DNA of 64,000 nucleotides from Chlamydiota bacterium (lineage in GTDB: Bacteria; Auribacterota; JACPWU01), in NCBI GenBank assembly GCA_016196885.1, contig JACPWU010000003.1:21633-85632 (forward strand). The letters are read 5' to 3'. The notes under the pieces were generated by a model that made no database searches, was not told where the DNA came from, and was given only the letters and a program-made list of their open reading frames with translations. Position 1 is the stretch's first letter. Every line of letters starts with the position of its first letter. Positions 3 through 55,590 of the stretch are shown here, piece after piece. The position numbers were made by a program, and so were the translations under genes.

Positions 3-242
3 GTGTCCAAAGAAAAATTACCTTCTTCGATAAGCGTCCTCTCGAGCGTCAACGCCATCAATGATAATTTTTGCGAATTCAATGTAAAAGAGAATGCGAT
101 ATTTACCGAATTTGGAAGTCACTCAAACATCCTCTGGGACCCCATTGTCTCCATTGAGTCAGTGGGTTTTGAGCATGTCTACGATATTGAAGTAGAGGGG
201 ACGCATAATTTTGTTGGAAATGGAATTTTTGCACATAATACG
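3..242 (+). other. Intein C-terminal splicing region (blocks F/G), ending ...VYDIEVEGTHNFVGNGIFAHN with +1 Thr
   Basis: The translation ILWDPIVSIESVGFEHVYDIEVEGTHNFVGNGIFAHN|T matches the canonical intein C-terminal consensus (xYDLxV..HNFvANGi.vHN followed by S/T/C). The His-Asn codons are 234-239 and the Thr codon is 240-242. Confidence 0.6.
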
Positions 243-3200
243 GCGATATTCGCAACCCCCACCCCACAGACCCTAAGCCAGGCAACGAGCAATATTGTGG
301 GTGAAAAACTTTTGGATGAATTTGAGAAGTTAAATGGGGATAGGCCTCTTCAAGAAATTTCTATTTCTGAAAAATCGGGTCAAGTGCTTGAACCGTTAAG
401 ACAAGCTTTAGAGGGACATGAGGATGCCAAGTACATGATGGTTCGCATCGATGTTGAACTTTCACAAGGGGTGGTTAATCATGTCATCGTTATAGATACC
501 GTAGAAAACTTGCGAAGGGATGTTTTGCAGTTGACCCAAGGTTCTCTTGATCTAGCCCGCATTTCTCATCACATTTCTGCTGCGAGTGCCAATTCTGCCT
601 CGTCTGCGTCGTCAGACTCGGTCGGCCACGCTCAACATATTGCAAAGTATGCCTCGCATGGCCTCGGTCGTCTTCCTCGCATCCAAGGCAGACCTGACGC
701 TCTCGCGACGAAATCTGATGAGAAATGCGGGCTAGAAGGTTTTGAGTTTATTCTCAATTACAGCGAGCATGGAGCGAGGGAAGAACAAGGTGTTGGAGAA
801 ACTTTGGTGTTCTTGCATAACATAACGCTGGGCACGTCTGGACAGTCTCTTCTGCGTGGACGAGGTCTGATGTCGAGTGTCATTTCTCAGTGGGCACGGT
901 ATTTGGCTGAGTCAACGTTGAGTGGTAGACTCACCTTGGCCACCGATGCAAAACATCCAGCCACCATCTCTTTATTTAAAAAACATTTTCTTGCGCATGC
1001 GCCCTCTGATCTTGAGAAAATAAGTTTGAAAGACCGTTTTAAAGTGGATGTTGAATACACCACTGTTCATCCCTTGTTTGGAAGTTTACCCATTGGTCTT
1101 CGTGACGCGCAACGTCCAGTGAAGATTAAATCGCTGGGAGAAATTAAATTAGTTAATGGGACTTATGAAGTGGAAATTCCTTCTGGGGTGCTTCCAGAAA
1201 ATCAGGAGGGAAGGATTGTTACTGAAATCAATGAAACCTTAAGAGATGTTTCTGATTGGCTCAAGCAATCCACCCTGTCTCGAATTTCAGGTTTTCGTAT
1301 GCCTGAAACTTTAGACTTAAGTGTGGCAAGTTTTTTTGAAAGTTTAGCGGGTTCAACACCCGAGCGTGGAGAACAAAGGGCGGGTCTTATTTTGGCTCGA
1401 GAGCTTTTAGCGATTCAAGATCCTCAAGGAAGAAGGCAGTTGATGCGTCTTGCGATTCTTCACGAGTTAGCTAGCTTGATTTGGCCTTCATTGATATGGC
1501 CCGAGCATAGGAGAGGCCGCTCAGGCGATATTTTAATGGAGGTAGATGCGCATTATCTTGCAGACATGATGTCCGGTGAGAGTGGTGACGCATCTATTCA
1601 AGCGATTCATGGAGTTCTTTCATCCTATGCTGAAGGACAAACGATTGTACGGGACCGTGTCTATGCCTCAAAAAATCCCATTGATGTGGCGATTTACGAT
1701 TATTATCAATTTACACAGTTGGTGAGGGAGTTTCGAAGTCAAATCATTTCAAATCAACCTGTTCCAGAATTAATCAGTTATGCGCGTTTCATGACCTCAC
1801 GTCGTAAAGATATGGATGCCAGATCCGTGGTGGACGAGCGGGTAGAGAGAATTAAGACGGGTCAGAATCTTTCCTCCGATGATCCCTCTCGAATTAAAGA
1901 TCGCTTGAATGCACTGGTTCGTGAGCTAGAGTCGGATGATGCATTGGCCTTGTTAGACAGAAAACTTGAGGTGGGAGATGATGTGGTCAATTTCTATTGG
2001 CGGGGGACAGGCGATGAGGAAACGATAGGGTTGAAACAGGCTAATGATGAAATATGGGGATATGGTTTAACCAATCAATTGATCAGTGTGGTACAGAAAG
2101 GTGCTTTGACGCTCATGGAGGAGAGTGGGCTCGTAGAGCTCACCCTAGAGACAGATGATAAAGGTGTGCTTCATATCAAAAACGGCAGAGACTTGATTCG
2201 AAAAAATTATAAATCTACTGTTTTTCGTGTTGCGCAAGATCGCAGGGTTGGAGATTATGAATTGAGATTAGGAAATATACAACTTCAGTTAAACGATGCA
2301 CTCAATCGCTATGTGCGAGGGGAGGAAACAGCTCTTTTAGGTAAGCCTGATGAAGCGATTGTAAGTCGCTTCCATCAAAGTGTTCGCGATCCTAAGAAGA
2401 AAATTCAAATTGATTTTGGAATAGGGACCGTTCGTGGCGGAGATTTAAGATCCAAGGTGGAAGCCGACTCCGAAGCGATTAAAGCCGCGATTATGGCGCA
2501 TCACAGTGAAGCAAGAAGATTTGATCAGGAGACGTTCGAAGCGGGTATTGAAGAAGCTGTAAAAATTAAGAATATTTTGATAGAGGCACGGTTTTCTCTT
2601 TTTACAGCTTCAGGTGAACTTGATTCAGACACGTTTGATCATTTAAGGAAGTGGGAAAAGTTTGAAAAATCTCAGCATGATACTTGGAGTGGAGTTCTTG
2701 GTCAATCCTCCATGACGTTGACTGATGTCCAGAGTTCCGTTTCAGAGGGAATGAGCTACCCAGAATTTCTTGAATCGAGAAACGCATCGGGATTATTGCA
2801 AAACCATTTGCTTCGGAAACTTTATCATTATCATTTGGCCAAGCACTTTTTTGAGTGGGTAGGGATTGTAGATTATATTAAAGAGTGGCAGAGTGATGCA
2901 TTAAAGGCACAAGAGAGATCTCGACAGGTAAATGACGCTTTGAAGTACATTCAGGAAAATCGCTCTGAATATGAAAAGATTATTGGAAAATTATCTGAAG
3001 GAGTTCCATCCCTCGAAACCCATGAAGCGTCTTTACGAGAGAGTATGGAAGAAAAGATTCGTTTAGCTCAAAGCCTTCTTTCCTCCGATCGAAAAATTCC
3101 CGGGTGTACCTCCAGAAGAGTTTTTGACGCTCGGGCGTTTAGCCATTCAGAAAAAGGAATGGTTTTTATCAATTTGGATGTGAAAGGCATGGGGCGGGAG

Positions 3201-6200
3201 AACTTTAAGGATTTTCTGAAGCGTGTAGAGAAAATTCATGAACTGATTCAACAGAAGAAATCAAATCCTTCCCTGACAGAGACAGTCAATGAGCAAATTC
3301 TCTCCCAGACATTGATTGCAGGGGATACGGTCACAGAAAATTTTGTTAAAGTTGGGAAAAAGGCAGTGGGTGTGATAGCAGAGCGATTAAAAGAGAGGCC
3401 AGATTTATTGAATCAAATGGGAATTTTCTTAAATTCCGATGGTTCTATTGATGAAGAAAAGACCTTAAACTTGGTTGAAGTGGGCGGCGATGAACTGACG
3501 TTTGCGATTCCCCAAGAGGCTCTTCAATTGATTGGAGAAGAGGGCCTTTCTCAGATTCAAGTTGAGGCGGGCACGCGAATGATGGTGAGTCCCGTGGAAA
3601 AGGAAAGAGTAGATCGTCGAGACGAGGTTAATTACGGATTGGCAATTGCAAAGCTTGATGAGGGAACAGCCTTGGCAAAAGAGTTGGAGGCGCTTGGATT
3701 TAAGGATTTTTTTGTCCGACGTCTTTTTGATGAGACAACTAAAGAATATTTCTGGAAGGCTTTTTTTAGAAATGCCGAAGGGAATATTGAAGAACGTGAA
3801 ATGGGTTGGAGGCCTGACATGGCTCGAGGAGATGTGGGACATGGAATGCTTGCCATGAGACCCTACCAGATCACACGATTTCAGGAGCATCTTCGATCTC
3901 CTCGGACGCCGATGTTTGATGCAGCTCAATATCTTAAAGGGCTTCTCTCTGATTCAGGTTACTCAAGCTCGGTTGTGTCTCTTTCTTCCGAAGATTTTCG
4001 TTCGTTGATGATGGAAATAGAAAATGGAATTTTTCAGGCGGGTTACTTTGTCCCTGGTTTTGATTTTGGGGATGAAGATAGGCTTAGGCAGTTGAAATCT
4101 TTAAAGAGCGAAGTTGTGAGAGTACGGGGCGTGAATAGAAATCTCCCTCCTGAAGGGGTTGAGGTTAAAAATATAGAAGCTGCCATAGATCAATTGGTGA
4201 ATGACATTGTCCAACACCCTGAAGTTAACCTGCTTATTATTACCGGTGTTCCCGGTGCTGGGAAAGGCGTATTTTCAAAAGCATTAAGACAAAGACTTGA
4301 ATCGACACTACAATCAATAGGCTCAGATAGAACAGTTCAATTAATCGAGCGAGATAAATGTTTTAGTCCTTCCGGTGGATGGTATCGTGCAGAAGAGGAA
4401 TATGATCCAGACACGATTTATGATGTGGAAGGACCCGTGTTTGCTGGGGAAATGATAGAAGAGTTTAGAACTCACATGGTCAATGGGGTTCCTCCGCTTC
4501 GAGCTGAACAAATTCGAAGAATTGGCATTTTTGCTCCCATCGATCAAATTCGCGGCCAATTGGCAGAGCGCGGTCGTACCTTAGAAGTAGACCATACAAC
4601 GGATGTACAACTTGCGGCCGAACTTGACACCCGTTTCGATTATTGGTACTTCGGCGAGGATTTTTCGAAATATACTCTCATGGTAGATAATACCAGAGCC
4701 TCTGGATCGACAGGCGAAAGTGGACATGAAGGGGGGTCAGGGGCAGAGACCCTGGGTGAGACCCTCTCGAGAGGTATCCCCACTGAAACCGTGGCCGGCG
4801 CGCATCCGGTGAGTACGCCTCAAAACCGAGGAGCGAGTTCCAAACTTAATTTGTCGGCTTCTACCCCCGCCATTCCTAAAGAGGCGCGTCACGGCAAACC
4901 AGGCAAAGAACCTCAAAAAGGTTTTGCCATGATAGAAACCTTTGTTCGGGCTCTTTCGGGTGGAAGCGCTGTGATGTTTTTTGTTTTTCTAGGCTGCTTT
5001 GGTTCTGCGTTATCTGTCTTGGTTGGTGGAAGAAGTAATATGCCTACAAATACCAATATTGAGGATATCACCTTTCAAAACCGAGGAGCGAGTTCCAAAC
5101 GAGGATCTATCAGTCTTGATGAGAGAGGAGGGGTCAGACCCTTAACACGCACAACGACAATCGGACGATTGGGTTCACGCTCATGGCTGAATCTGGCCAA
5201 TGCCATACTCTCTTTGTTATATTCAGGGTTGTCTTCGATTTGGAAGACGATCAATGCCTCATTCGGCACTTTTCCAGCCAATTTGTCGTCACTCAACATG
5301 AGTTTACTCCACTCTGTCGTAAGTTCTATGGTCTTGTGGGTAAAGCTCTCTTCACGCATCATAATTCATCCGCTCCTTAATGTATCGGTCTCGGTAGAGG
5401 CGCCAGTTGATTTTAAGATCTTGTTCAGCAATCGTCAGGGCTTCGTTCAAGTCAACCAACCCCATGGGCGTTTTTTCGACGGCACGGCCAGGCCGGTACA
5501 GGTCACGATGGGCGAAATCGTGCGCCGTGTCATAACGAACGATTGGCTCCCAACCGTTCCCACTCCAATACTCCAATTGTACCACAAATTCCACGACTTG
5601 CTTTCCAAATCGCTGGTGCCAATGTCTCAATCGGCAATCCCTGGGCAAGAGGTCGACCACGAAGCTGCGAATCTGAGCCATCCGCTAAGTCTATCGCATG
5701 CCCCAGGATATGTCAATGAGGCCGGGCGAGATCTATTGACTTCCACTTCCACCAAAGCCGCGGGCGGGACACATCCTCTTTCTTCAAACAGAGTCACCGA
5801 AATTTTGGGCAAGATGAAGGAAAGGGGAATTCAAGGACGGGTGATCGCCAGAGATGATTCTCGCTTTAAGGGCATCGAATCTAAAACGGATGATTTCTTA
5901 AGACCTTTAGGTCTTGCAGGTGAAGGAAACAAAGGCTTGGAAAGCATGACGGTTTTTGACGAGGTGGATTTGTCTTACACCTCGACGGATGGAACCGAAG
6001 TGCATGTGAGCCTCAAGAAAGGCGATTCTGTTTTCACAGTGACAGAGACCCAAAAGGGAGAATCTCGAACGACCCAAATCGTTGCTTTTAGAGATGATGA
6101 AGGCGGCGTTTATACAACAGCAAGATTTTGGGATCAAGCGTCTGACGAGGCTTGGGTCGAGCTCTGTGTTCATGAAATCAGCGAAGTCAATGCGAAGACG

Positions 6201-9200
6201 AACCAGAAAATTATTTCTGCGCTTAATCAAATTCAAGTGGATTCCACGGGTCCCGATGCTCGAGTCGAGTTTTTTAAGCGATTTTATGTTTCTCTAACAA
6301 TTCAAAACAATCAGATCACGAGTCTTAAATCTTCTAATGAATCCGATCCGGCTCACGTTCTAGCTGAGTTTCTGGAGGTGGTCAGGACGTTACAAGTTTT
6401 GAGGCAACCCATCACGACAGAAAATGTATTAAGGACGGTCAGCGTTTTGGATCAGAATATAGGAGGCCTGTCTCAAGGTTTGTCTAAAAATCCTCTTGTG
6501 GGACAAGAGCCTACCCATCGGTTTTCAAATTCGAATGCAGAGTTTGTTGATTCAGAGAAGTTGAAGAGATTAAGAGGATTGGCGGAACTCTTTTATGAGG
6601 CTTATACAGATGCTTTTGAAGCCAATAGACTGAGTCAGGGTGAAGCCAAGTGGACCGAAAAGGATATCTTCATTACAGATCCGCTCACGAATCAAAAAAT
6701 GACCATTCAGGATCTTGAAAATATTGAACTTCAATTAAGCGTTGGAGAAAAGAAAACAGAGGCTATTCAAGGAGAATATCGTCCCTATAGAAGACGCATT
6801 GCTAATCTTAAAGGTGTTAAACGTTTAAGTCTCCAAGATGCTTATGGTCCCATGCTTAGAAAAGTTCAATCAGAGTTAAGTCAGGGTAAGCAATCTGTGG
6901 TTTTGCGCATTGGAGGACGAAGTGGCACCGGCAAAACAAGTATTGCGGATGAGATGGGTAAGTGGGGACTGGGCCCTATTTTACCATCAGAAATTTCTGT
7001 CTTGCATGCGGATGATTTAGTTGGTTTTGACTCTATGCGGCTTGCTGTTGAGGTCGAGAAGAAAAAGGGAAAGAAGTTGATTATTTTAGAGGGAACTTAT
7101 TCATTGCGTGGGAGAGAAATGATTTTTGAAGAGAATGCTCCTGAAATAGAAGCGGACGTTCAAGTTTTTGTGGAATTACACGAAGATACCCGCGTTCAGC
7201 GTCTTTTTGAGAGAGCTCATTTTCGTGATAGATCCTGGATTGCCTATATGGATCGAGTGATCAAGGATCGAGAGGATATTCTTCGGGTTGCAAGCAGATA
7301 CTTGCCTGAGTCCTTAGAAAAAAGGATTGTGGATACAGTCCAACAGGTAGATGGAGAAAAAAATGTTGCAAAGGCAGGTGGGTATTATAAAGCTGCAAAG
7401 AAACTACTCTTAGAACATCTTTTAGCTGTTAGAACACAAGGTGCAAACTCGATGTTTGATTTTGCGAGAGTAGAAAATCTAATCGATCGCTATACCATTG
7501 ATCAGGAACGAAGAACAGCGGACATTATTATCAAAAATGATCAGTATAATACCGGATTAGGTGTTCTTGCTGACAATCAAAGCCTCATTTTTAGAGACTC
7601 TTTGAAGCGACTTTCCAGTTTACTTCCTTCAATACAGAAAAATAAAGATGAGATTGTGACCCTTATCATCACACTTGTTAGAGATTTTTCAAGCAACCCT
7701 ATCATTTTAGGAATAGAAGACTTGTTTCAACAAGAAGGCACGACACAAAGACTTACAACAATGAAAACAGATCCATTAAGGAAATGGGTAGAAAAATTCT
7801 TAATTTTACCTGCTCATGTTTCTCAGCTCTCAAGGTTGGTAAGAACCAGCTTAAGAGAGACCTCTCGAAATCCCAGCTTTCTCCACTCTACCCTGGGCGA
7901 TAAGCCTAGAGATGAGGTGAAGCGATGGATTGATCAAAATGCTGACTTCGTAGAGCGATATGCTCCCATCAGGCGCGGCTTGTCACAATTTATGCGCCGT
8001 TATTCTTTGGGTGCTGCGAATATATTGGGTGGCTTAAGTGTGGGTTTCTCAAGAGAGACGTGGTATCGAATTTTTGCGATTGGGTTTGTGGGATCTTTGA
8101 TCAGTGGGATGGCCGCATTTGTTTTATCTCTTTCTTCAGATCGACTTGGCTTTGCAATATTGTCAGGTCTTGCGATCACTTTATTAACCTCAGTTGTTGT
8201 AGATGATATGGCCATGAGTTTTGCAGAGGCACATTATGTAGTAACGAGTGAGAATTATTTGGCAGGAAAAGGAAGAGAAGAATCTCTCAACGGGAAAGAA
8301 CTTTCAGAGGCAGAATATCGGAAGACTCCTGAATACAAGGCCCATCATGATTTTGCGATGAACATAGCCTTGATAGGATTGATCACATTTGTCGCAGGGG
8401 TGATTTTCACACAAGTGACAGGTTTTTCTTTCACATTTCCCTTGTTTATTCTCCTCGAGGTAGTTTCTATCGTAGTTCCTTCGCTCATTCATGCCATCCA
8501 TGACATTCGCTTCTGGTTCGGTCATGAAGAATTGACCTTGCATAGTGCGGGCAATGTGTCATTGCAAGACCTGACCCCAAATAGACTGCTTCAGAAATAT
8601 TTGGATGAAGGGACCATGCTTCAGATAACACTTGTAAATGGAGCGGGTATACGCGTTTTATTCGGTCAGATTGAGAAGATAGAAGTTTCCGGATATTCCC
8701 CAGTTTTTTATTTGAAGGGGTCCCTTTTGCCAGTTCCTATTCAAGATAATGTCAAAGTTAAACCTGTTACAAAAGCTGAAATCTATAAATCGGTTAGAAA
8801 ATCTTTGGGGGAACTTGCAGGCGAGTCGTATTTTGGGAAGAAGTTTTTAAAAACATTGATAGAAATTCCAGATGCCATCAACAAGTTTCTGAGTGGGGTG
8901 GATAGCCATGGTCAGCTAGAGTTGAAAGAGAGATTTCCAACAGCTGCTCAGTCTTATCAAGGTGCGCTCGCAGCATGCTTTTCTGAAAAGGGGAGTACAA
9001 AGCTTGCTTATCTATTGATGAGACAATATAAATTGCCTGATGATCTTCGAAAAAGGGACAGCATTCCCTTTCTTTTCGATGAAAAATTGTCAGAAACGGG
9101 AGGGCTTTCAAAATGGGTGGAAGATGTATTTGTTTTAGAGGGAGAAGCTTTTGAAACTTTGATCAATCAGCAATATGAATCAAGTGTCCGATATATTGGG

Positions 9201-12200
9201 GGAGTATCAGCGATGAAAATGGATGATTTCATTCGGGATGTTGAAGGGGATAAATCAAAATTCAAGATGTCTCTCATTCATGCGCTGGTGGTCTCTTATA
9301 AGGATCTCGAAGGTCGAATGCCTATCGAGACATTTAAGACTCTGCTCGTCAGAGTTGTCATGGAGGCTTATACGGAATCTCACCTGAAGAATGCGCATCA
9401 CGCCTTAACCATTGGTTTAGGACTATTGAGGGAAATGAAGTCACCCAAGACATTTTTCAGAGTCTTGTATCATGAATTTGGGCATAACCTCCTAGAAATG
9501 GTTCATTATTTAGAATACAAAACTTTCTTAGAAAAAGCCCAGAACGAATTAATCAGTGATTTAATGATGTGTTCTGTCCAGGGTGAGGGCGTTCATGATA
9601 TTCGAGAGGCGATTGGATTTTTACAATATGCTTCTGCCGGTATGACGGCCGATGTTAATCGGGGTCAGGCGTTTAGTCCTCATGATTTGGCAAGGGCCCA
9701 ATTGATGAAATTATTCAACAGAATTGGAGAGGCAAATGAGCGCCGTGCAAAACAAGGACTTCCAGCGGTTCGATTGAACTTTAAAGAGTTATTGTTCAGT
9801 GCACTGGAGCTGGGTTTTGATGAAAAAGGTGATTTTTCACAGTGGTTTAATCAAGTGATTCAAAAGGCGTTACGTCCTCAAAAGACTTTTGTGCTGGAAG
9901 GGGGAGTAACAGTTTTTTCTCAACAGCAATTAATGACACGATGGGATAAGTTTAAAAGAATAGCCCTCCTCTCTCTTTATGGTTTAATCCCCGTCGTAGT
10001 ACTTCCCATCATTATTTTATATAGGTTGCGTATTTTAAAGAAGTCCTTCCTTCAAAATTTTGTTCATTGGATGAGGGCATTCATCGGTAAACGAGGCCAA
10101 GTGAACTCACTGGATTGGCTGCCGGGAGAATTAGAACATCTTGACGTTTCAAGAGGAGTACGATTGTCAGAAGTGACTGCCAAACGCATTGGAACTCGAG
10201 CAAATGAAAAAGATGTCAAATGGGATCGGAGCAATGAAGTTGATATTACAAATGAAGTGCAGGCATCTTTAATCGAAGTGATTCAGGTTGTGCTTGGAAA
10301 TGCTCATGTGGATGAGGATGCCACAAGAGCGCCACCGGGTCTGGAAAGACATTCTACATACGAACAAATTTTGAGGAACGTTAGCGAGGCTCTCGAACGT
10401 GGAAAAATCAGAATTGTTTATGCCGATTTTGACAATGATGATGTTGAGGCGACGCGTGTTTTTGAAGACGGTGTGCTGACGGTGGTGATAAATCGAAAGG
10501 CCTTAGATTTGGAGATCATCCTCTCCTACGTCGCCCACGAGTTTGGCGAAGAAAAAGCAGGCCTCTTACACCCTGAAGTCGCCAGTGGCCTTGAGCCCTT
10601 CATTCGCTGGAGGCTTTCCGGAGGAAAGGATTTTATTCCGCGCAGAATAGAACGGGCTGTCGGGCTAGCTGTCTTAAAAGCATTAAATGGGGATATGACG
10701 GCTCAACAATATTTAGAAGATTTTTTAAATGGTTATCAATACGACCGTGAGAAATATGGACGAGAAGGAGAAGAAGTTGCCAATGAATTCTCTCGCGAGG
10801 TTAGGGGATGTTGTGAAGATGCTATTGTGAGAGATATCAGAGAGCTGACTCAATCAGGTTCTCTTTCTATTCTTAGGAATATACCTGGAGGGCTTTTCAA
10901 ACTTTTGATTGACGTGGTTAATTCGTCTGCTCACTACAAAGGAGAAAGTGAGTTGATAGAATTAAGAGATAAAATGCTTCAAGAAAGAGGTGTTGATCTA
11001 AATAAACCACCTTCTGGGGCGGCAAGATATGCCGATGTATCGGATGCGGTTAAAATCTTAGCGGGAGATATCTTACGAGATCCAAAACAAATCACTCTTA
11101 TTTCTGGCATTCCAGGCTCTGGTAAAACAACATTTGGACAAAGGTTGACAGAGGAATTAAGATCGCGTTCTTCTTATTTTCGTGTTGAGTTGATTGAAAC
11201 AGATAATATTCACTCTTCTTTAGAGTATGAAGAAGGAGTGATTTATATCATTGAAGGATCAGCTCTTCAACAATCCAATTTTCAAGAATATATTGGTAGC
11301 TCTATTTTGAAACATGCTTCCCATTCTTCTTTCAGAAGAGTTGGGATGTATGCCCCTGTTGAAGCAGTAAAGACAAGAATACAAGGACGGAGCAGGGATA
11401 AAATGGATATTGATTTGTACTGGCAGGCCTATGATCGAATGCTTTATTGGTATTTGGCAGAGGATTTTTCTCAATATCAAATGGTGGTGCTTAATTATTC
11501 ATTAGGAAAAGAGGGTCTGCAGGAACTTGAAAAAGCAGGCTATCCGATTCTTAGATCTATCGATGATCAATCTTTACCCCCTCTTCGCCCCGGTCAAGAT
11601 CGTTACAAAGTCATCACCGTCTGCCGTGCAAATATTTTTAGAAGTCAGATGCTTCAACTTTTCTTGCAGAAGATGTTTGAAAAATTGGGATTTGGGTCTC
11701 TTTTTGAGGTGAGCTCAAGAGGATTCACTGAACATATTTATAGAGATCCATGGCGCACTCTGTATAAAGAGTATATTCCAACGAGAGAACGTGTCTATTC
11801 CTCTTTAGTGGACAGGGGAGGTCCAGGTCGAAGAGCAGCGGATGAATATTATTTTTTAAAAGAAAGGGCAGAATTTTTAGGAGATGCTGATATTCAATCT
11901 GCCAGTTTAATTTTAGTTGCCGATCAGAATATTAAAGATCGTCTTTCAGAAAAGAATCCAGATCTAGGTGATCGAGTTCGTTTGATGACTGATTTATTTC
12001 CTGAGGGTCATGATCTTTATGGAAAAGATTTGCCGGATCTTCCAGTCAATGGACCTGCTGTAGGGATTCCTTCTTTAAATGGTGCCCAACTCTGGAAACT
12101 TTTAGAAGTTGTAATATCCAATTATCAAAAAGCTTTTGTCCAAAGAATAGACCCCTTCTTCTCCGCCTTTCAGAAATTTCTGCGGTTGAAATTAAAGCCC

Positions 12201-12803
12201 ACCCAAGCGGGTGAGAAGCCGCGCCTTATTATCATGGATGCTGGGATATTGCAGGGGGAGGGGAACGTTGAAAGAATGAAAGTGACTTTACGTGCTTTGA
12301 GAGATGAGATCGAGAGGAGTCAGGATCAAAATCTAAAAGTTTGGATTACGGGCCTAGATGCCCAAGGGGCTGCCTTAAATTTATTCTCAGAATTTAAAGA
12401 AGAAAAATGGTTTAAATTTATGGATTTGACAAGGGGGGATCAAACACTTACGGATCTTCTAGGTGAAGAAAGAATAGACCATGAAAATGTGACTGCAGCC
12501 TATCTTGACCTTGAAGAACACCGAGCTTTTTTTAAGGGCTTAACGATTCAAAAAGTCGTGGTCCGAAAGCCGGGTGAAGGAGAAATCCTTTCATTCTCTG
12601 CTGTTTTCATGGCCTGCCTTGCTGACAATTATGATGAATTACTCGCTCAATTTGATGATCCTGAGCAACGCGCTCAGGTAGAGCAAGTGATTGCGCAAGT
12701 GAGAGAGGGTAATTTAACGGCTTTGTTTGTGAAACCTGTCCGTGTGTCTGATGCTTTACAAGGGAAGATAAGCGCGAGAGAAGAGGCACAGACCAACATG
12801 TAG
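3..12803 (+). CDS. Giant multidomain membrane protein, 5'-partial (at least 4266 aa; the ORF runs off the window start)
   Basis: 12.8 kb with no stop. Hydrophobic helices lie near nt 4920-5040, 8000-8500 and 9960-10030. Enzyme-like motifs (P-loops, HExxH, C(X)5R) are spread along it. Confidence 0.85.
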   Translation: MSKEKLPSSISVLSSVNAINDNFCEFNVKENAIFTEFGSHSNILWDPIVSIESVGFEHVYDIEVEGTHNFVGNGIFAHNTAIFATPTPQTLSQATSNIVGEKLLDEFEKLNGDRPLQEISISEKSGQVLEPLRQALEGHEDAKYMMVRIDVELSQGVVNHVIVIDTVENLRRDVLQLTQGSLDLARISHHISAASANSASSASSDSVGHAQHIAKYASHGLGRLPRIQGRPDALATKSDEKCGLEGFEFILNYSEHGAREEQGVGETLVFLHNITLGTSGQSLLRGRGLMSSVISQWARYLAESTLSGRLTLATDAKHPATISLFKKHFLAHAPSDLEKISLKDRFKVDVEYTTVHPLFGSLPIGLRDAQRPVKIKSLGEIKLVNGTYEVEIPSGVLPENQEGRIVTEINETLRDVSDWLKQSTLSRISGFRMPETLDLSVASFFESLAGSTPERGEQRAGLILARELLAIQDPQGRRQLMRLAILHELASLIWPSLIWPEHRRGRSGDILMEVDAHYLADMMSGESGDASIQAIHGVLSSYAEGQTIVRDRVYASKNPIDVAIYDYYQFTQLVREFRSQIISNQPVPELISYARFMTSRRKDMDARSVVDERVERIKTGQNLSSDDPSRIKDRLNALVRELESDDALALLDRKLEVGDDVVNFYWRGTGDEETIGLKQANDEIWGYGLTNQLISVVQKGALTLMEESGLVELTLETDDKGVLHIKNGRDLIRKNYKSTVFRVAQDRRVGDYELRLGNIQLQLNDALNRYVRGEETALLGKPDEAIVSRFHQSVRDPKKKIQIDFGIGTVRGGDLRSKVEADSEAIKAAIMAHHSEARRFDQETFEAGIEEAVKIKNILIEARFSLFTASGELDSDTFDHLRKWEKFEKSQHDTWSGVLGQSSMTLTDVQSSVSEGMSYPEFLESRNASGLLQNHLLRKLYHYHLAKHFFEWVGIVDYIKEWQSDALKAQERSRQVNDALKYIQENRSEYEKIIGKLSEGVPSLETHEASLRESMEEKIRLAQSLLSSDRKIPGCTSRRVFDARAFSHSEKGMVFINLDVKGMGRENFKDFLKRVEKIHELIQQKKSNPSLTETVNEQILSQTLIAGDTVTENFVKVGKKAVGVIAERLKERPDLLNQMGIFLNSDGSIDEEKTLNLVEVGGDELTFAIPQEALQLIGEEGLSQIQVEAGTRMMVSPVEKERVDRRDEVNYGLAIAKLDEGTALAKELEALGFKDFFVRRLFDETTKEYFWKAFFRNAEGNIEEREMGWRPDMARGDVGHGMLAMRPYQITRFQEHLRSPRTPMFDAAQYLKGLLSDSGYSSSVVSLSSEDFRSLMMEIENGIFQAGYFVPGFDFGDEDRLRQLKSLKSEVVRVRGVNRNLPPEGVEVKNIEAAIDQLVNDIVQHPEVNLLIITGVPGAGKGVFSKALRQRLESTLQSIGSDRTVQLIERDKCFSPSGGWYRAEEEYDPDTIYDVEGPVFAGEMIEEFRTHMVNGVPPLRAEQIRRIGIFAPIDQIRGQLAERGRTLEVDHTTDVQLAAELDTRFDYWYFGEDFSKYTLMVDNTRASGSTGESGHEGGSGAETLGETLSRGIPTETVAGAHPVSTPQNRGASSKLNLSASTPAIPKEARHGKPGKEPQKGFAMIETFVRALSGGSAVMFFVFLGCFGSALSVLVGGRSNMPTNTNIEDITFQNRGASSKRGSISLDERGGVRPLTRTTTIGRLGSRSWLNLANAILSLLYSGLSSIWKTINASFGTFPANLSSLNMSLLHSVVSSMVLWVKLSSRIIIHPLLNVSVSVEAPVDFKILFSNRQGFVQVNQPHGRFFDGTARPVQVTMGEIVRRVITNDWLPTVPTPILQLYHKFHDLLSKSLVPMSQSAIPGQEVDHEAANLSHPLSLSHAPGYVNEAGRDLLTSTSTKAAGGTHPLSSNRVTEILGKMKERGIQGRVIARDDSRFKGIESKTDDFLRPLGLAGEGNKGLESMTVFDEVDLSYTSTDGTEVHVSLKKGDSVFTVTETQKGESRTTQIVAFRDDEGGVYTTARFWDQASDEAWVELCVHEISEVNAKTNQKIISALNQIQVDSTGPDARVEFFKRFYVSLTIQNNQITSLKSSNESDPAHVLAEFLEVVRTLQVLRQPITTENVLRTVSVLDQNIGGLSQGLSKNPLVGQEPTHRFSNSNAEFVDSEKLKRLRGLAELFYEAYTDAFEANRLSQGEAKWTEKDIFITDPLTNQKMTIQDLENIELQLSVGEKKTEAIQGEYRPYRRRIANLKGVKRLSLQDAYGPMLRKVQSELSQGKQSVVLRIGGRSGTGKTSIADEMGKWGLGPILPSEISVLHADDLVGFDSMRLAVEVEKKKGKKLIILEGTYSLRGREMIFEENAPEIEADVQVFVELHEDTRVQRLFERAHFRDRSWIAYMDRVIKDREDILRVASRYLPESLEKRIVDTVQQVDGEKNVAKAGGYYKAAKKLLLEHLLAVRTQGANSMFDFARVENLIDRYTIDQERRTADIIIKNDQYNTGLGVLADNQSLIFRDSLKRLSSLLPSIQKNKDEIVTLIITLVRDFSSNPIILGIEDLFQQEGTTQRLTTMKTDPLRKWVEKFLILPAHVSQLSRLVRTSLRETSRNPSFLHSTLGDKPRDEVKRWIDQNADFVERYAPIRRGLSQFMRRYSLGAANILGGLSVGFSRETWYRIFAIGFVGSLISGMAAFVLSLSSDRLGFAILSGLAITLLTSVVVDDMAMSFAEAHYVVTSENYLAGKGREESLNGKELSEAEYRKTPEYKAHHDFAMNIALIGLITFVAGVIFTQVTGFSFTFPLFILLEVVSIVVPSLIHAIHDIRFWFGHEELTLHSAGNVSLQDLTPNRLLQKYLDEGTMLQITLVNGAGIRVLFGQIEKIEVSGYSPVFYLKGSLLPVPIQDNVKVKPVTKAEIYKSVRKSLGELAGESYFGKKFLKTLIEIPDAINKFLSGVDSHGQLELKERFPTAAQSYQGALAACFSEKGSTKLAYLLMRQYKLPDDLRKRDSIPFLFDEKLSETGGLSKWVEDVFVLEGEAFETLINQQYESSVRYIGGVSAMKMDDFIRDVEGDKSKFKMSLIHALVVSYKDLEGRMPIETFKTLLVRVVMEAYTESHLKNAHHALTIGLGLLREMKSPKTFFRVLYHEFGHNLLEMVHYLEYKTFLEKAQNELISDLMMCSVQGEGVHDIREAIGFLQYASAGMTADVNRGQAFSPHDLARAQLMKLFNRIGEANERRAKQGLPAVRLNFKELLFSALELGFDEKGDFSQWFNQVIQKALRPQKTFVLEGGVTVFSQQQLMTRWDKFKRIALLSLYGLIPVVVLPIIILYRLRILKKSFLQNFVHWMRAFIGKRGQVNSLDWLPGELEHLDVSRGVRLSEVTAKRIGTRANEKDVKWDRSNEVDITNEVQASLIEVIQVVLGNAHVDEDATRAPPGLERHSTYEQILRNVSEALERGKIRIVYADFDNDDVEATRVFEDGVLTVVINRKALDLEIILSYVAHEFGEEKAGLLHPEVASGLEPFIRWRLSGGKDFIPRRIERAVGLAVLKALNGDMTAQQYLEDFLNGYQYDREKYGREGEEVANEFSREVRGCCEDAIVRDIRELTQSGSLSILRNIPGGLFKLLIDVVNSSAHYKGESELIELRDKMLQERGVDLNKPPSGAARYADVSDAVKILAGDILRDPKQITLISGIPGSGKTTFGQRLTEELRSRSSYFRVELIETDNIHSSLEYEEGVIYIIEGSALQQSNFQEYIGSSILKHASHSSFRRVGMYAPVEAVKTRIQGRSRDKMDIDLYWQAYDRMLYWYLAEDFSQYQMVVLNYSLGKEGLQELEKAGYPILRSIDDQSLPPLRPGQDRYKVITVCRANIFRSQMLQLFLQKMFEKLGFGSLFEVSSRGFTEHIYRDPWRTLYKEYIPTRERVYSSLVDRGGPGRRAADEYYFLKERAEFLGDADIQSASLILVADQNIKDRLSEKNPDLGDRVRLMTDLFPEGHDLYGKDLPDLPVNGPAVGIPSLNGAQLWKLLEVVISNYQKAFVQRIDPFFSAFQKFLRLKLKPTQAGEKPRLIIMDAGILQGEGNVERMKVTLRALRDEIERSQDQNLKVWITGLDAQGAALNLFSEFKEEKWFKFMDLTRGDQTLTDLLGEERIDHENVTAAYLDLEEHRAFFKGLTIQKVVVRKPGEGEILSFSAVFMACLADNYDELLAQFDDPEQRAQVEQVIAQVREGNLTALFVKPVRVSDALQGKISAREEAQTNM
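6880..7260 (+). other. Uridine kinase / phosphoribulokinase-like P-loop module inside giant protein 1
   Basis: The motifs VVLRIGGRSGTGKTS (Walker A), LIILEGTY and VFVELHEDTRVQRLFERAHFRDR resemble the UK/PRK family signatures GxSGSGKT, IxEG and DxxxRxxRRxxRD. Confidence 0.45.
9440..9500 (+). other. HExxH zincin-like motif (YHEFGHNLLEMVH) in giant protein 1
   Basis: An HEFGH pentapeptide flanked by hydrophobic residues. No third metal ligand was identified. Confidence 0.3.
11080..11440 (+). other. Second UK/PRK-like P-loop kinase module (a third P-loop, GVPGAGKG, lies near nt 4240-4280)
   Basis: ITLISGIPGSGKTTFG followed by IYIIEGS. An additional Walker A, LLIITGVPGAGKGVF, sits at about 4230-4280. 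Confidence 0.4.
11590..12060 (+). other. Low-molecular-weight protein tyrosine phosphatase / ArsC-fold-like module in giant protein 1
   Basis: VITVCRANIFRS matches the LMW-PTP P-loop C-x-x-N-I-x-R-S (C(X)5R-S). A downstream SSRGF resembles the ATSGY region. Confidence 0.45.
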
Positions 12804-12834: not shown

Positions 12835-13013
12835 TTTCACCTGAAAATAGTCTTTAGTCATTCTTATACAATGACTCATGATGACTTGTAGTCGCCCGAT
12901 TTATCGGGCAATGCCCAATGCCACAATGTCATAGACCGCCCCATAAATGGGGCGACTACAAGGGTAATTTTCATCCCCCTTTGTGCCGACCTCAGTCGGC
13001 ATGAATGTTTCAT
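12835..13013. repeat. ~175-bp palindromic MITE-like element, copy A; its core is the GTAGTCGCC...GGCGACTAC double-hairpin at 12888-12959
   Basis: Near-identical inverted copy at 15834-16002. The core has hairpins GCCCGAT-TTA-TCGGGC and GCCCCAT-AAA-TGGGGC inside an outer stem GTAGTCGC/GCGACTAC, plus the hairpin TGCCGAC-CTCA-GTCGGCA. Confidence 0.8.
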
Positions 13014-13551: not shown

Positions 13552-13830
13552 ATGAAAAATGTTCTTGCGGTAACGGAGATGGCTCGGCATTTTGCGGAGT
13601 ATATCAATCGTGTAGCTTATCGGGGCGAGTGTTTTGTGCTTTTGCGTGGAAAAAAGGCGGTTGCAGAAATTAAGCCTGTTTTAGGGGGAAAGCGCCTGAG
13701 GGAGTTGCCGGATATTTTAAAGTCGCTGTCTCATTTATCTGAAGAAGAGGCCGTTTCTTTTAGGCGGGATGTAGATCTTTTAAGAAGAAAATCCAGGAAA
13801 GAATCCTTGAGGGATCCATGGGCGTCTTGA
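13552..13830 (+). CDS. Phd/YefM-family type II antitoxin
   Basis: AVTEMARHFAEYINRVAYRGECFVLLRGKKAVAEIKPV matches the Phd/YefM fold pattern. SD GGAGGTG precedes the ATG, and the gene overlaps the downstream PIN gene by 13 nt. Confidence 0.7.
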   Translation: MKNVLAVTEMARHFAEYINRVAYRGECFVLLRGKKAVAEIKPVLGGKRLRELPDILKSLSHLSEEEAVSFRRDVDLLRRKSRKESLRDPWAS

Positions 13831-14222
13831 TTGATTCAAGTGTATTGATAGAGCTTGAAAGGGGTCGAGAAGACTCTGCAAAGCTGATCAAAGGGCGAGA
13901 GGATGATGAGTTTTTTATATCTGTTGTGACCGCGAGCGAGCTACTTCATGGAGTTTTTCGCGCCAAGCATGCCAGTGATCGAACCCGACGTTCCGCTTTT
14001 GTAGAGGGTGTTTTGGGCCAATTTCCTCTGATTGACATTGATTTGATGGTGGCTCGGATTCATGCCCGATTATATTCAGATCTTGAGTCTAAAGGAACTA
14101 AAATTGGAATGAAGGACTCTTGGTTGGCGGCCACGGCAATTGCCTATGATCATACTTTGATGACCTTTAATATAAAAGACTTCAAAAGGGTGTCCGGCCT
14201 CAAAGTAGAATCTCCAGGGTGA
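13818..14222 (+). CDS. vapC: PIN-domain VapC-family toxin
   Basis: N-terminal MGVLIDSSVLIELERG carries the first PIN Asp. The pattern SVVTASELLHG ... DSWLAATA is VapC-like, and the gene is translationally coupled to the Phd gene. Confidence 0.7.
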   Translation: MGVLIDSSVLIELERGREDSAKLIKGREDDEFFISVVTASELLHGVFRAKHASDRTRRSAFVEGVLGQFPLIDIDLMVARIHARLYSDLESKGTKIGMKDSWLAATAIAYDHTLMTFNIKDFKRVSGLKVESPG

Positions 14223-15833: not shown

Positions 15834-16002
15834 ATGAAACATTCATGCCGACTGAGGTCGGCACAAAAGGGGATGTTGTAGTCGCCCCATTTATGGGGCG
15901 GTCTATGACATTGGGGCATTGGGCATTGCCCGATAAATCGGGCGACTACAAGTCATCATGAGTCATTGTATAAGAATGACTAAAGACTATTTTCAGGTGA
16001 AA
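15834..16002. repeat. ~170-bp palindromic MITE-like element, copy B, inverted relative to copy A; core at 15878-15949
   Basis: Its reverse complement matches 12835-13013 nearly base for base, apart from a ~10-bp indel. The spurious ORFs 12607-12879(-) and 15958-16191(+) both begin MSHCIRMTKDYFQVK and derive from this repeat. Confidence 0.8.
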
Positions 16003-55088: not shown

Positions 55089-55590
55089 AAATGGACGACA
55101 CTTTTCCCCAATCTTTTCTCGATTTGCCCAACGGCAACGGGTCGAATCCGAGAACAAGCGGGGACTGCTGGTTTACATCTCTCCATTTTAATCTCTTTAA
55201 TCCTCCTCCTTTAAGCCAGATTTTACAATAGACGCGAGAACTCAAGAGCAAGAGCTTGAGCCAGACAGGCCTTTGCAGTCCCTGTGGGATTGGCCTGAAG
55301 AAAGCGCAGGTATGCATAAAAAGATGCCTGTCGAGCATTTCTGAAGGCCAAGTACCCCAAGATGTTGCGTCGAATTCCGCGGCCTATTGCAAAATCTGGG
55401 TTTAAAGACGAGATCCTTCGTCGCAAAAGAGCTCCTCAGGATGACAAATGAGGGAGGTTCTAGAACGGATCTTATTTTTAACTTTCTCTCCTAGAGTAAC
55501 TTAAATTATTAAAAACTCCTCATTTTTCTTTTGACCTTCTGGCCCTTTCAGATGTCTTTAATGTTGAAAGCTGTTATAGCAAGGTACCTT

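What the first reader, a model, noticed from the sequence alone, without database searches (positions are those of the whole stretch)
3..242. Intein C-terminal splice junction at the start of giant gene 1
The first 80 codons in the window end with ...NILWDPIVSIESVGFEHVYDIEVEGTHNFVGNGIFAHN followed by Thr, a near-textbook intein block F/G with a +1 nucleophile. The frame then continues stop-free for 12.5 kb. This implies an intein inserted in a giant structural or enzymatic protein, whereas inteins are normally confined to replication and repair enzymes. The alternative is that a housekeeping extein is fused to the giant frame.
Basis: partly seen in the sequence, partly recalled or inferred. 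Interest (0 to 1): 0.6.

Follow-up and report, generated by a model that had tools for sequence, protein, structure and literature searches.

The report
Intein inside a giant chlamydial protein
The window opens on the last 79 residues of a genuine self-splicing protein element (an intein) that interrupts a 6,014-residue protein of unknown function in an uncultured environmental chlamydia, an unusual host because inteins normally sit in conserved sites of housekeeping enzymes.

Summary
Window 3-239 encodes the C-terminal lobe of an intein (Pfam Intein_splicing E 4e-11; TIGR01443 above cut-off). It ends His-Asn, is followed by Thr (240-242), and the frame stays open to 12,803.

The deposited full protein (P0028, 6,014 aa, Chlamydiota MAG) is identical to the window over 4,265 aa. 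Upstream it supplies Cys1 (block A, CVTADTLL) and block B (TTANHPYL). The intein is 446 aa (residues 1382-1827). An AlphaFold model built on a family alignment folds the two lobes into a DnaB-type Hint domain (TM 0.87 to NpuDnaB).

No housekeeping extein and no homing endonuclease were found. The endonuclease slot holds about 250 aa with no homologue anywhere, bracketed by a duplicated block B.

The intein belongs to an apparently undescribed clade in Omnitrophota, Patescibacteria and Elusimicrobia. It sits in unrelated, non-conserved proteins, yet the +1 residue is Thr or Ser in 113 of 113 copies.

Relatives carry an NYN nuclease, exist as split inteins, or read through toxin-antitoxin genes encoded on the opposite strand.

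The chemistry is standard and splicing is inferred, not shown. The element is a new variant of a known kind, of moderate interest.

The parts
3..125 (+). Variable linker of the intein (intein residues 368-408, P0028 residues 1749-1789), lying between the W-KVS..GDEIAV strand and the C-terminal lobe.
   Evidence: Translation. It aligns with the variable linkers of family members. AlphaFold pLDDT is below 50 for intein residues 375-406.
126..239 (+). Conserved C-terminal lobe of the intein: ILWDPIVSIESVGFEHVYDIEVEGTHNFVGNGIFAHN. Block F is about 177-215. Block G is 216-239 and ends in His-Asn (234-239).
   Evidence: Pfam PF14890 E 4.2e-11. TIGR01443 42.6 bits. pLDDT 93-98. Identity to clade members is 52-86% over this part.
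240..242 (+). Thr+1 codon (ACG): the first residue of the C-extein and the nucleophile for the transesterification step.
   Evidence: In 113 block-G occurrences in retrieved relatives the +1 residue is Thr 109 times and Ser 4 times.
240..12803 (+). C-extein of the giant protein: 4,187 aa plus the stop codon (P0028 residues 1828-6014). It holds three weak P-loop kinase-like modules, a weak low-molecular-weight phosphatase-like match (below the Pfam cut-off), and several hydrophobic segments.
   Evidence: ORF list. Pfam hits are weak only, all below the curated cut-offs.

Best explanation
Window 3-239 is the C-terminal end of a 446-residue class-1, DnaB-type intein that interrupts a 6,014-residue hypothetical protein of a groundwater Chlamydiota MAG. 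It lies between ...PLADLGK (N-extein, 1,381 aa) and TAIFATPTPQ... (C-extein, 4,187 aa).

The most likely mechanism is ordinary cis protein splicing:
- Cys1 makes a thioester with Lys-1.
- Thr+1 attacks the thioester to form the branched intermediate.
- The terminal Asn, helped by the penultimate His and the block-F Asp, cyclises and releases the intein.
- An O-to-N shift then seals a 5,568-residue mature protein.

What is shown: the sequence motifs, the continuous ORF, the predicted fold, and clade-wide conservation of the catalytic residues. What is inferred: splicing itself.

The intein has no recognisable homing endonuclease. The endonuclease slot just after block B holds about 250 residues with no homologue, bracketed by two copies of the block-B segment (R-x-IKTTANHPYL-x-K). 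It is therefore probably immobile now.

It belongs to a clade whose members sit in unrelated, non-conserved proteins of Omnitrophota, Patescibacteria and Elusimicrobia. Its closest relatives are from Omnitrophota, so horizontal acquisition is likely, but this too is inferred.
For: - C-lobe: Pfam E 4e-11 and TIGR01443 above cut-off.
- Full protein: P0028 and P0052 are identical to the window over 4,265 aa and continuous upstream in two assemblies.
- N-lobe: Cys1, TxxH, and TIGR01445 at 29.5 bits against a cut-off of 24.5. The whole intein scores Pfam E 1.3e-20.
- PDB profile search: the best matches are the NpuDnaB intein 4o1r (6e-32) and the Ssp DnaB mini-intein 1mi8 (1e-28). The bacterial intein-like domain 2lwy reaches only 6e-4.
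- Structure: AlphaFold2 with a 28-sequence alignment gives pLDDT 90-98 for most of residues 1-100 (dipping to 65-70 over residues 11-30), 95-96 for 351-370 and 93-98 for 411-446. The model superposes on 4o1r and 1mi8 with target-normalised TM 0.87.
- Conservation: the +1 nucleophile is conserved in 113 of 113 clade copies despite unrelated exteins.
- Composition: the intein part does not stand out (GC 0.40 against 0.43 +/- 0.045 for the extein).
Against: - No experiment or proteomic evidence of splicing exists.
- The 250-residue orphan insert and the second block-B copy are modelled with pLDDT below 50. They could interfere with folding.
- No intein-free homologue of the host exists, so a precise 'empty site' cannot be shown.
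- The upstream 367 intein residues come from a database protein, not from the window DNA, which could not be fetched.
- Lys at position -1 and Thr at +1 are permissive but not optimal contexts in studied inteins (own knowledge).
Confidence: 0.75

Rival explanations
1. It is a decaying or inactive intein. The Hint lobes are still recognisable, but the large orphan insert and the duplicated block B prevent productive folding. The element then either stays in the mature giant protein as a spacer or performs only N- or C-terminal cleavage, cutting the protein into a 1,381-aa membrane-proximal part and a 4,187-aa part.
For: - The insert of about 250 aa has no Pfam family, no homologue among 5.8 billion proteins, and pLDDT below 50.
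- Block B occurs twice, a pattern seen in no other family member.
- There is no endonuclease, so no ongoing homing keeps the element under selection as a mobile unit.
- The host has no known essential function that would enforce splicing.
Against: - Every catalytic residue is intact: Cys1, Thr and His of block B, the block-F Asp, His-Asn and Thr+1.
- The lobes are 60-77% identical to relatives and are modelled at pLDDT above 90 as a closed Hint fold.
- Large inserts at this position are normal for inteins. Relatives carry 150-300 aa there.
Confidence: 0.2
2. It is a bacterial intein-like (BIL) or pretoxin-Hint autoprocessing domain of the kind found in variable secreted proteins. It would act by cleavage or unconventional ligation rather than being a true intein.
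For: - The host context resembles that of BILs: a non-conserved region of a huge, variable, membrane-associated protein (PMC2814812).
- Some relatives give weak PT-HINT or Hint Pfam hits.
Against: - Sequence profiles place it with DnaB inteins (6e-32), about 28 orders of magnitude better than the BIL structure 2lwy (6e-4).
- It has the C-terminal His-Asn and a +1 nucleophile, and the latter is invariant in the clade.
- The intein-specific TIGR01443 and TIGR01445 models pass their cut-offs.
Confidence: 0.04
3. It is an artefact: a chimeric assembly, or the fusion of two genes carrying split-intein halves, so that no single 6,014-aa precursor is ever made.
For: - Many relatives are genuinely split, with an IntN gene and an IntC gene.
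- The duplicated block B could be a scar of such a fusion.
- Intein repeats fragment assemblies, and many relatives lie on contigs of 1-3 kb.
Against: - Two separate assemblies (contigs of 86,830 bp and 105,051 bp) give the identical continuous protein.
- The window frame is open through the junction.
- Short Logan contigs from two sequencing runs match the neighbouring DNA 100%.
Confidence: 0.01

Closest known systems
DnaB mini-inteins (Nostoc punctiforme DnaB intein, PDB 4o1r; Synechocystis DnaB mini-intein, PDB 1mi8)
   Same: These are the best sequence-profile matches (6e-32 and 1e-28) and the best structural matches (TM 0.87). They share the class-1 catalytic set: Cys1, block-B TxxH, the block-F Asp and His-Asn. 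They also share the W-K-x-x-x-L strand after block B.
   Different: The DnaB inteins sit at a conserved site of the replicative helicase and have Ser+1. This one sits in a linker-like stretch of an orphan 6,014-aa protein and has Thr+1. It also carries a 250-aa orphan insert with a duplicated block B.
Bacterial intein-like (BIL) domains (Amitai et al. 2003; summarised in PMC2814812)
   Same: The life-style is similar: Hint domains in non-conserved regions of large variable proteins, without a homing endonuclease.
   Different: BILs typically lack the +1 nucleophile or the terminal Asn (own knowledge), and they form separate sequence families. Here both residues are present, and the +1 nucleophile is conserved clade-wide. 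The similarity to a BIL structure is marginal (6e-4).
Fractured genes and naturally split inteins with a free-standing nuclease gene between the halves (Dassa et al. 2009, recalled from own knowledge)
   Same: Patescibacterial members of the same clade are split just after block B. In L004 the halves are separated by a 507-aa PD-(D/E)XK-like ORF and a 155-aa ORF.
   Different: The window's intein is contiguous, so it would splice in cis. The hosts of the split relatives are tail-fibre-like or Ig-like surface proteins rather than replication enzymes.

Membership tests
Canonical (class 1) intein | Hint-fold splicing domain with blocks A, B, F and G | tested here: met
   The whole intein scores Pfam PF14890 E 1.3e-20. 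TIGR01445 and TIGR01443 are above their cut-offs. The AlphaFold lobes have pLDDT 90-98, and Foldseek gives TM 0.87 to 4o1r and 1mi8.
Canonical (class 1) intein | Cys or Ser nucleophile at intein position 1 | tested here: met
   Cys1382 of P0028 in ...ADLGK|CVTADTLL. This lies 1,101 nt upstream of the window. It is taken from the deposited protein, which is identical to the window over 4,265 aa.
Canonical (class 1) intein | Block B Thr-x-x-His | tested here: met
   TTANHPYL occurs at intein residues 85-92. A second copy lies at 316-323. The first copy lies in the confidently modelled N-lobe and the second in a segment with pLDDT below 50.
Canonical (class 1) intein | C-terminal His-Asn followed by a Cys, Ser or Thr at +1 | tested here: met
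   Window 234-239 is CAT AAT and 240-242 is ACG, Thr. The +1 residue is Thr or Ser in 113 of 113 clade copies.
Canonical (class 1) intein | In-frame insertion in one continuous host ORF | tested here: met
   The frame is open from 3 to 12,803. The 6,014/6,016-aa product is called identically in two assemblies.
Canonical (class 1) intein | Insertion at a conserved site of a conserved host protein, with intein-free homologues | tested here: not met
   No homologue of the flanking exteins was found. The junction lies about 35 aa after a hydrophobic segment, in a low-complexity stretch. Clade members sit in unrelated hosts. This is a typical property (PMC2814812) rather than part of the biochemical definition.
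Canonical (class 1) intein | Demonstrated protein splicing | not testable with these tools
   This needs expression or proteomics.
Homing-endonuclease-bearing intein | LAGLIDADG, HNH or another nuclease domain between blocks B and F | tested here: not met
   The insert has no Pfam hit at E up to 1. It shows no similarity to the NYN domains of relatives (hhalign probability 0.07%). It has no homologue in 5.8 billion proteins.
Bacterial intein-like (BIL) domain | Separate sequence family that usually lacks the +1 nucleophile or the terminal Asn | tested here: not met
   Both residues are present. The profile match to BIL 2lwy is 6e-4, against 6e-32 for a DnaB intein.
Naturally split intein | IntN and IntC encoded by separate genes | tested here: not met
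   The product is continuous through the intein in two assemblies. Split forms exist among relatives only.

The most novel reading that the evidence does not exclude
The window's intein is one member of an undescribed lineage of DnaB-type inteins that has left the 'conserved site of an essential gene' niche. The lineage spreads through linkers of giant, surface and orphan proteins across Omnitrophota, Patescibacteria, Elusimicrobia and, here, Chlamydiota.

On this reading its endonuclease slot serves as a cargo bay:
- an NYN nuclease in the sense strand;
- whole toxin-antitoxin operons (ParE; DUF433 with DUF5615) on the antisense strand, which the intein ORF reads straight through;
- split forms with intervening nuclease-like genes.

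The 250-aa orphan insert with its duplicated block B would then be the remnant, or the antisense shadow, of such cargo. The intein would persist through addiction or hitch-hiking rather than through homing.
Probability: 0.2. Interest if true: 0.75.

Novelty: new variant of a known kind. Interest (0 to 1): 0.5.

Why it matters
The textbook rule, quantified in PMC2814812, is that inteins survive because they sit in conserved, functionally critical sites of essential proteins, where imprecise loss is lethal and homing is possible. Here a canonical, apparently splicing-competent intein sits in an orphan 6,014-aa protein. Its clade occupies many unrelated, non-conserved hosts while keeping every catalytic residue. 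If the clade really splices, three things follow.

- It shows a second evolutionary strategy for inteins, one that resembles BIL domains in life-style but keeps intein chemistry.
- It offers a set of natural inteins and split inteins that tolerate arbitrary extein contexts, which is useful for protein engineering.
- Annotated lengths of giant proteins in uncultured PVC and CPR bacteria may need correcting for excised inteins.

For the window itself the consequence is modest. The mature protein would be 5,568 aa, not 6,014 aa.

Tried and rejected
**Fetching the upstream DNA.**
- Exact 69-nt pattern scans of genome contigs, metagenome contigs and viral contigs found nothing.
- A protein-guided scan of genome contigs with the N-extein/intein junction found nothing.
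- The giant gene exceeds the 5,000-aa limit of the exact look-up. The nearest downstream gene with a 10-kb flank reaches only window position 3,818.
- The upstream part was therefore recovered as protein only.

**Structure.** A single-sequence AlphaFold run was useless (pLDDT 29) and was replaced by a run on an alignment.

**Nature of the 250-aa insert.**
- Pfam gave nothing.
- hhalign against NYN gave nothing.
- Dedicated homologue searches gave nothing.
- An HMM of the sense-frame inserts that are antisense to DUF433 and DUF5615 in relatives scored -1.6 bits.
- A codon-aligned 'possible antisense peptide' Smith-Waterman test against ParE, DUF433 and DUF5615 gave z of 1.4 or less. The test has little power.
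- The eye-caught similarity of RKLRAKANVG to the RLPMANVRIG motif is therefore not supported.

**Other leads that went nowhere.**
- P0032 (6,192 aa) looked like an orthologue, but it shares only the palindromic element.
- A viral vector was considered. The motif YDIEVEGTHNF is generic to many inteins, and only 1 of 11 IMG/VR hits (L016) belongs to the clade.
- No compositional sign of recent transfer was found.
- Rfam and tRNA scans of the window were empty.
- Literature searches for inteins combined with Omnitrophota or Omnitrophica, Patescibacteria, candidate phyla radiation, NYN, giant genes or Chlamydiae found nothing relevant.

Full report
**1. The observation**

Window 3-242 translates to VSKEKLPSSISVLSSVNAINDNFCEFNVKENAIFTEFGSHSNILWDPIVSIESVGFEHVYDIEVEGTHNFVGNGIFAHN|T. 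The last 49 residues match the C-terminal third of Pfam Intein_splicing: E 4.2e-11, 43.3 bits against a cut-off of 35.8, profile positions 106-155 of 155. They also match NCBIfam TIGR01443 intein_Cterm, with 42.6 bits against a cut-off of 15.6.

The intein ends with His-Asn at 234-239, and the Thr codon ACG is 240-242. The finding's 80 codons therefore include the +1 Thr. The frame then runs without a stop to 12,801-12,803. No second intein motif occurs in any frame of the window, and the other large ORFs have no Hint domain.

**2. Where the window comes from and what lies upstream**

A small neighbouring gene (a PIN/VapC toxin gene, window 13,818-14,222) was located by exact look-up on NCBI contig JACOUD010000054.1 (GCA_016178005.1, 86,830 bp). 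There the giant gene is called as a 6,016-aa product with an Intein_splicing hit. That contig is 99.995% identical to the window where they overlap, apart from a 229-bp indel.

A HMMER scan of 1.8 billion cluster representatives with the first 1,200 C-extein residues returned P0028 (6,014 aa) at 100% identity. P0028 and its twin P0052 are 'hypothetical protein' entries from two Chlamydiota MAG assemblies (locus tags HYZ67_00615 and HYS08_06815). They are identical except for the chosen start codon. P0028 residues 1750-6014 equal the window translation exactly.

The upstream DNA itself could not be fetched. Everything said below about the N-terminal 367 intein residues and the N-extein therefore rests on these deposited translations.

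**3. Anatomy of the intein**

The intein is P0028 residues 1382-1827, 446 aa. Its parts are as follows.

- **N-terminus.** It begins ...SPLADLGK|CVTADTLLPIL..., giving Cys1 and block A. Block B follows as ...GRSIKTTANHPYLKK (Thr-x-x-His). TIGR01445 intein_Nterm passes its cut-off.
- **Insert.** About 220 residues with no Pfam family follow.
- **Second block B.** A second, diverged copy of the block-B segment comes next (SRRIKTTANHPYLNK).
- **C-terminal part.** The conserved strand WTKVSALQVGDEIAV, a variable linker (where the window begins), and blocks F and G complete the domain.

Alignment with 9 complete relatives shows a conserved N-lobe of about 95 aa and a conserved C-lobe of about 40 aa around a hypervariable middle.

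A profile of the family finds DnaB inteins first in the PDB: 4o1r at 6e-32 and 1mi8 at 1e-28. A bacterial intein-like domain comes last, with 2lwy at 6e-4.

AlphaFold2 on a 28-sequence alignment models most of residues 1-100 (pLDDT dips to 65-70 over residues 11-30), 351-370 and 411-446 at pLDDT 90-98. Residues 103-347 fall below 50, and these include the second block-B copy. The model superposes on the NpuDnaB and Ssp DnaB inteins with target-normalised TM 0.87.

The two lobes are thus predicted to close into a normal Hint domain using the first block-B copy. All catalytic residues of a class-1 intein are present.

**4. The insert**

The endonuclease slot holds about 250 residues that gave no signal in any test.

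- Pfam finds nothing.
- They are unrelated to the NYN domains found there in relatives (hhalign probability 0.07%).
- They have no homologue among 5.8 billion proteins.

The duplicated block B is unique to this protein among the 165 retrieved. Its origin is unexplained. It could come from insertion with a long target duplication, from unequal recombination between intein copies, or from fusion of split halves. Deciding between these needs the DNA.

**5. The host**

The N-extein (1,381 aa) has no significant Pfam domain. It carries an N-terminal hydrophobic leader and two hydrophobic segments ending about 35 residues before Cys1.

The C-extein (4,187 aa) has only weak P-loop kinase-like matches (AAA_33, KTI12, Zeta-toxin type) and one weak low-molecular-weight phosphatase match, all below the Pfam cut-offs. 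Its first 1,200 residues have no real homologues.

There is no housekeeping extein. No intein-free allele exists with which to define an 'empty site'.

**6. The family**

Two searches retrieved about 160 relatives.

- **Closest relatives.** These are 66-77% identical in the lobes. They come from Omnitrophota and unnamed metagenomes (P0053, P0054, P0056, P0006) and from Elusimicrobia (P0063).
- **Largest group.** This comes from Patescibacteria.
- **Hosts.** They include FHA, HEAT-repeat, carbohydrate-binding, Ig-like (DUF5011), endosialidase-chaperone and Fibrobacter-domain proteins, as well as orphans.
- **Canonical hosts.** Only about ten more distant members (32-56% identical) sit in DnaB, SufB or dCTP deaminase, several with LAGLIDADG domains.
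- **Insertion sites.** In Patescibacteria the intein sits inside a repeated tail-fibre-like motif (...KLHVEGQ|C ... HN|TYISGNVGIGTT). In the Omnitrophota-type members only G-x|C and T-(Y/A)-I are shared at the junctions.
- **The +1 residue.** It is Thr in 109 and Ser in 4 of 113 block-G occurrences. This argues that splicing, not mere cleavage, is under selection across the clade.

[quoted passage not shown] This clade has intein chemistry with a BIL-like distribution. I found no paper describing it. The library searched is incomplete, however, so prior description cannot be excluded.

**7. What relatives carry in the endonuclease slot (outside the window)**

- **NYN nuclease.** Patescibacterial contiguous inteins carry an NYN nuclease domain directly after block B (E 1e-19 to 1e-22).
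- **Split forms.** Sixty-five of 165 retrieved proteins begin with an IntC segment only. In L004 a 249-aa IntN gene and a 637-aa IntC gene are separated by a 507-aa ORF with a weak PD-(D/E)XK nuclease match (E 1.5e-4, just above the Pfam cut-off) and a 155-aa ORF. This is a fractured-gene arrangement.
- **Antisense toxin-antitoxin genes.** In three contiguous relatives the oddly composed middle of the intein is the reverse strand of intact toxin-antitoxin genes.
  - L005 carries a ParE-like toxin (E 6.9e-5, full length) plus a 102-aa partner.
  - L006 and L007 carry DUF433 (4e-22 and 1e-21) plus DUF5615/Mut7-C-like genes (3e-14 and 4e-17).
  - In L006 and L007 the antisense codons are exactly codon-aligned with the intein frame, and in all three loci the intein ORF stays open through them.
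  - Five inteins in different hosts share this sense-frame insert.

I could not show that the window's insert is of this kind.

**8. Mechanism and rivals**

- **Best explanation (0.75).** This is a bona fide class-1 intein that splices in cis, giving a 5,568-aa mature protein and a free 446-aa intein. It is now endonuclease-less and probably immobile. The motifs, fold and ORF continuity are shown. The splicing is inferred.
- **Main rival (0.2).** The insert or the duplication has inactivated it, so that it remains in the protein or only cleaves.
- **BIL-type domain (0.04).** This is disfavoured by the profile scores and by the conserved His-Asn and Thr+1.
- **Assembly or fusion artefact (0.01).** This is disfavoured by two concordant assemblies.

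**9. Verdict**

The chemistry is known, so this is not a new kind of element. The host context and the clade behind it depart from the accepted picture of where inteins live. The novelty rating is 'new variant of a known kind' and the interest is moderate (0.5). The antisense toxin-antitoxin cargo in relatives is the most interesting lead and deserves its own study.

Noticed in passing
window 552-735 (+), inside the C-extein ORF: A 184-bp palindromic element with perfect 20-bp terminal inverted repeats (CTAGCCCGCATTTCTCATCA ... TGATGAGAAATGCGGGCTAG). It folds into one long hairpin (-95.5 kcal/mol, z -9.0). It is translated in frame as ...LARISHHISAASANSASS...KYASHGLGRLPRIQ...KSDEKCGLEG. The same peptide, 39-83% identical, occurs in about 20 unrelated proteins of 80-6,192 aa, including Chlamydiae MAG proteins P0002, P0003 and P0032. 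It looks like selfish DNA of the Rickettsia-palindromic-element type inserted into coding genes.
   Followed up: partly
window 12835-13013 and 15834-16002: Two 179-bp copies in inverted orientation, 93% identical. They flank a cassette of small toxin-antitoxin genes: a PemK-like gene, a Phd-like gene with PIN/VapC, HEPN with a nucleotidyltransferase, and PIN_3. One end weakly resembles the terminal repeat of the palindromic element.
   Followed up: partly
window 22954-23182: A 229-bp stretch is present in the window but absent from the otherwise 99.995% identical contig JACOUD010000054.1. With it, the window has one 1,624-aa ORF carrying glucoamylase, fn3, TSP3 and PA14 domains. Without it, the sister assembly calls two genes. 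This is probably a repeat collapse or a real indel.
   Followed up: no
window 26318-53407 and 55513-63999: Two further giant ORFs lie on the same strand. One is 9,029 aa, with only an outer-membrane-efflux (OEP) match. The other runs off the window end at 2,829 aa or more and carries UDP-glucose pyrophosphorylase-like and weak (below cut-off) methyltransferase-like matches. GC skew is positive in every 2-kb bin of the window.
   Followed up: partly
L005 1835-2394 (-), L006 1937-2516 (-), L007 3035-3620 (-): In three relatives of the intein (from Omnitrophota, a JGI metagenome and Elusimicrobia) the central region of the intein ORF is the reverse strand of intact toxin-antitoxin genes. These are a ParE-like gene plus a partner, or DUF433 plus DUF5615. 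In L006 and L007 the antisense genes are codon-aligned with the intein frame, and in all three the intein frame stays open through them. I know of no description of toxin-antitoxin modules nested antisense inside inteins.
   Followed up: partly
L004 98-4804: This is a patescibacterial 'fractured gene'. A 249-aa gene ending in IntN and a 637-aa gene starting with IntC come from the same intein clade. They are separated by a 507-aa ORF with a weak PD-(D/E)XK nuclease match and a 155-aa ORF. Sixty-five of 165 retrieved relatives start with IntC only, mostly Ig-like or tail-fibre-like surface proteins.
   Followed up: partly
proteins P0023, P0024, P0025, P0027, P0077, P0084, P0089 (relatives): Contiguous inteins of the clade in Patescibacteria carry an NYN (PIN-like) nuclease domain at the homing-endonuclease position (E 1e-19 to 1e-22). 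A search for 'intein' together with 'NYN domain' found no paper.
   Followed up: partly
proteins P0014, P0001, P0004 (Omnitrophota hosts of related inteins): By eye, the host proteins contain short motifs repeated many times between modules: (R/P)AEVR in P0014, and ARSLG or SLG in P0001 and P0004. The inteins sit close to such motifs. These may be linker or processing sites of polyprotein-like giant proteins.
   Followed up: no
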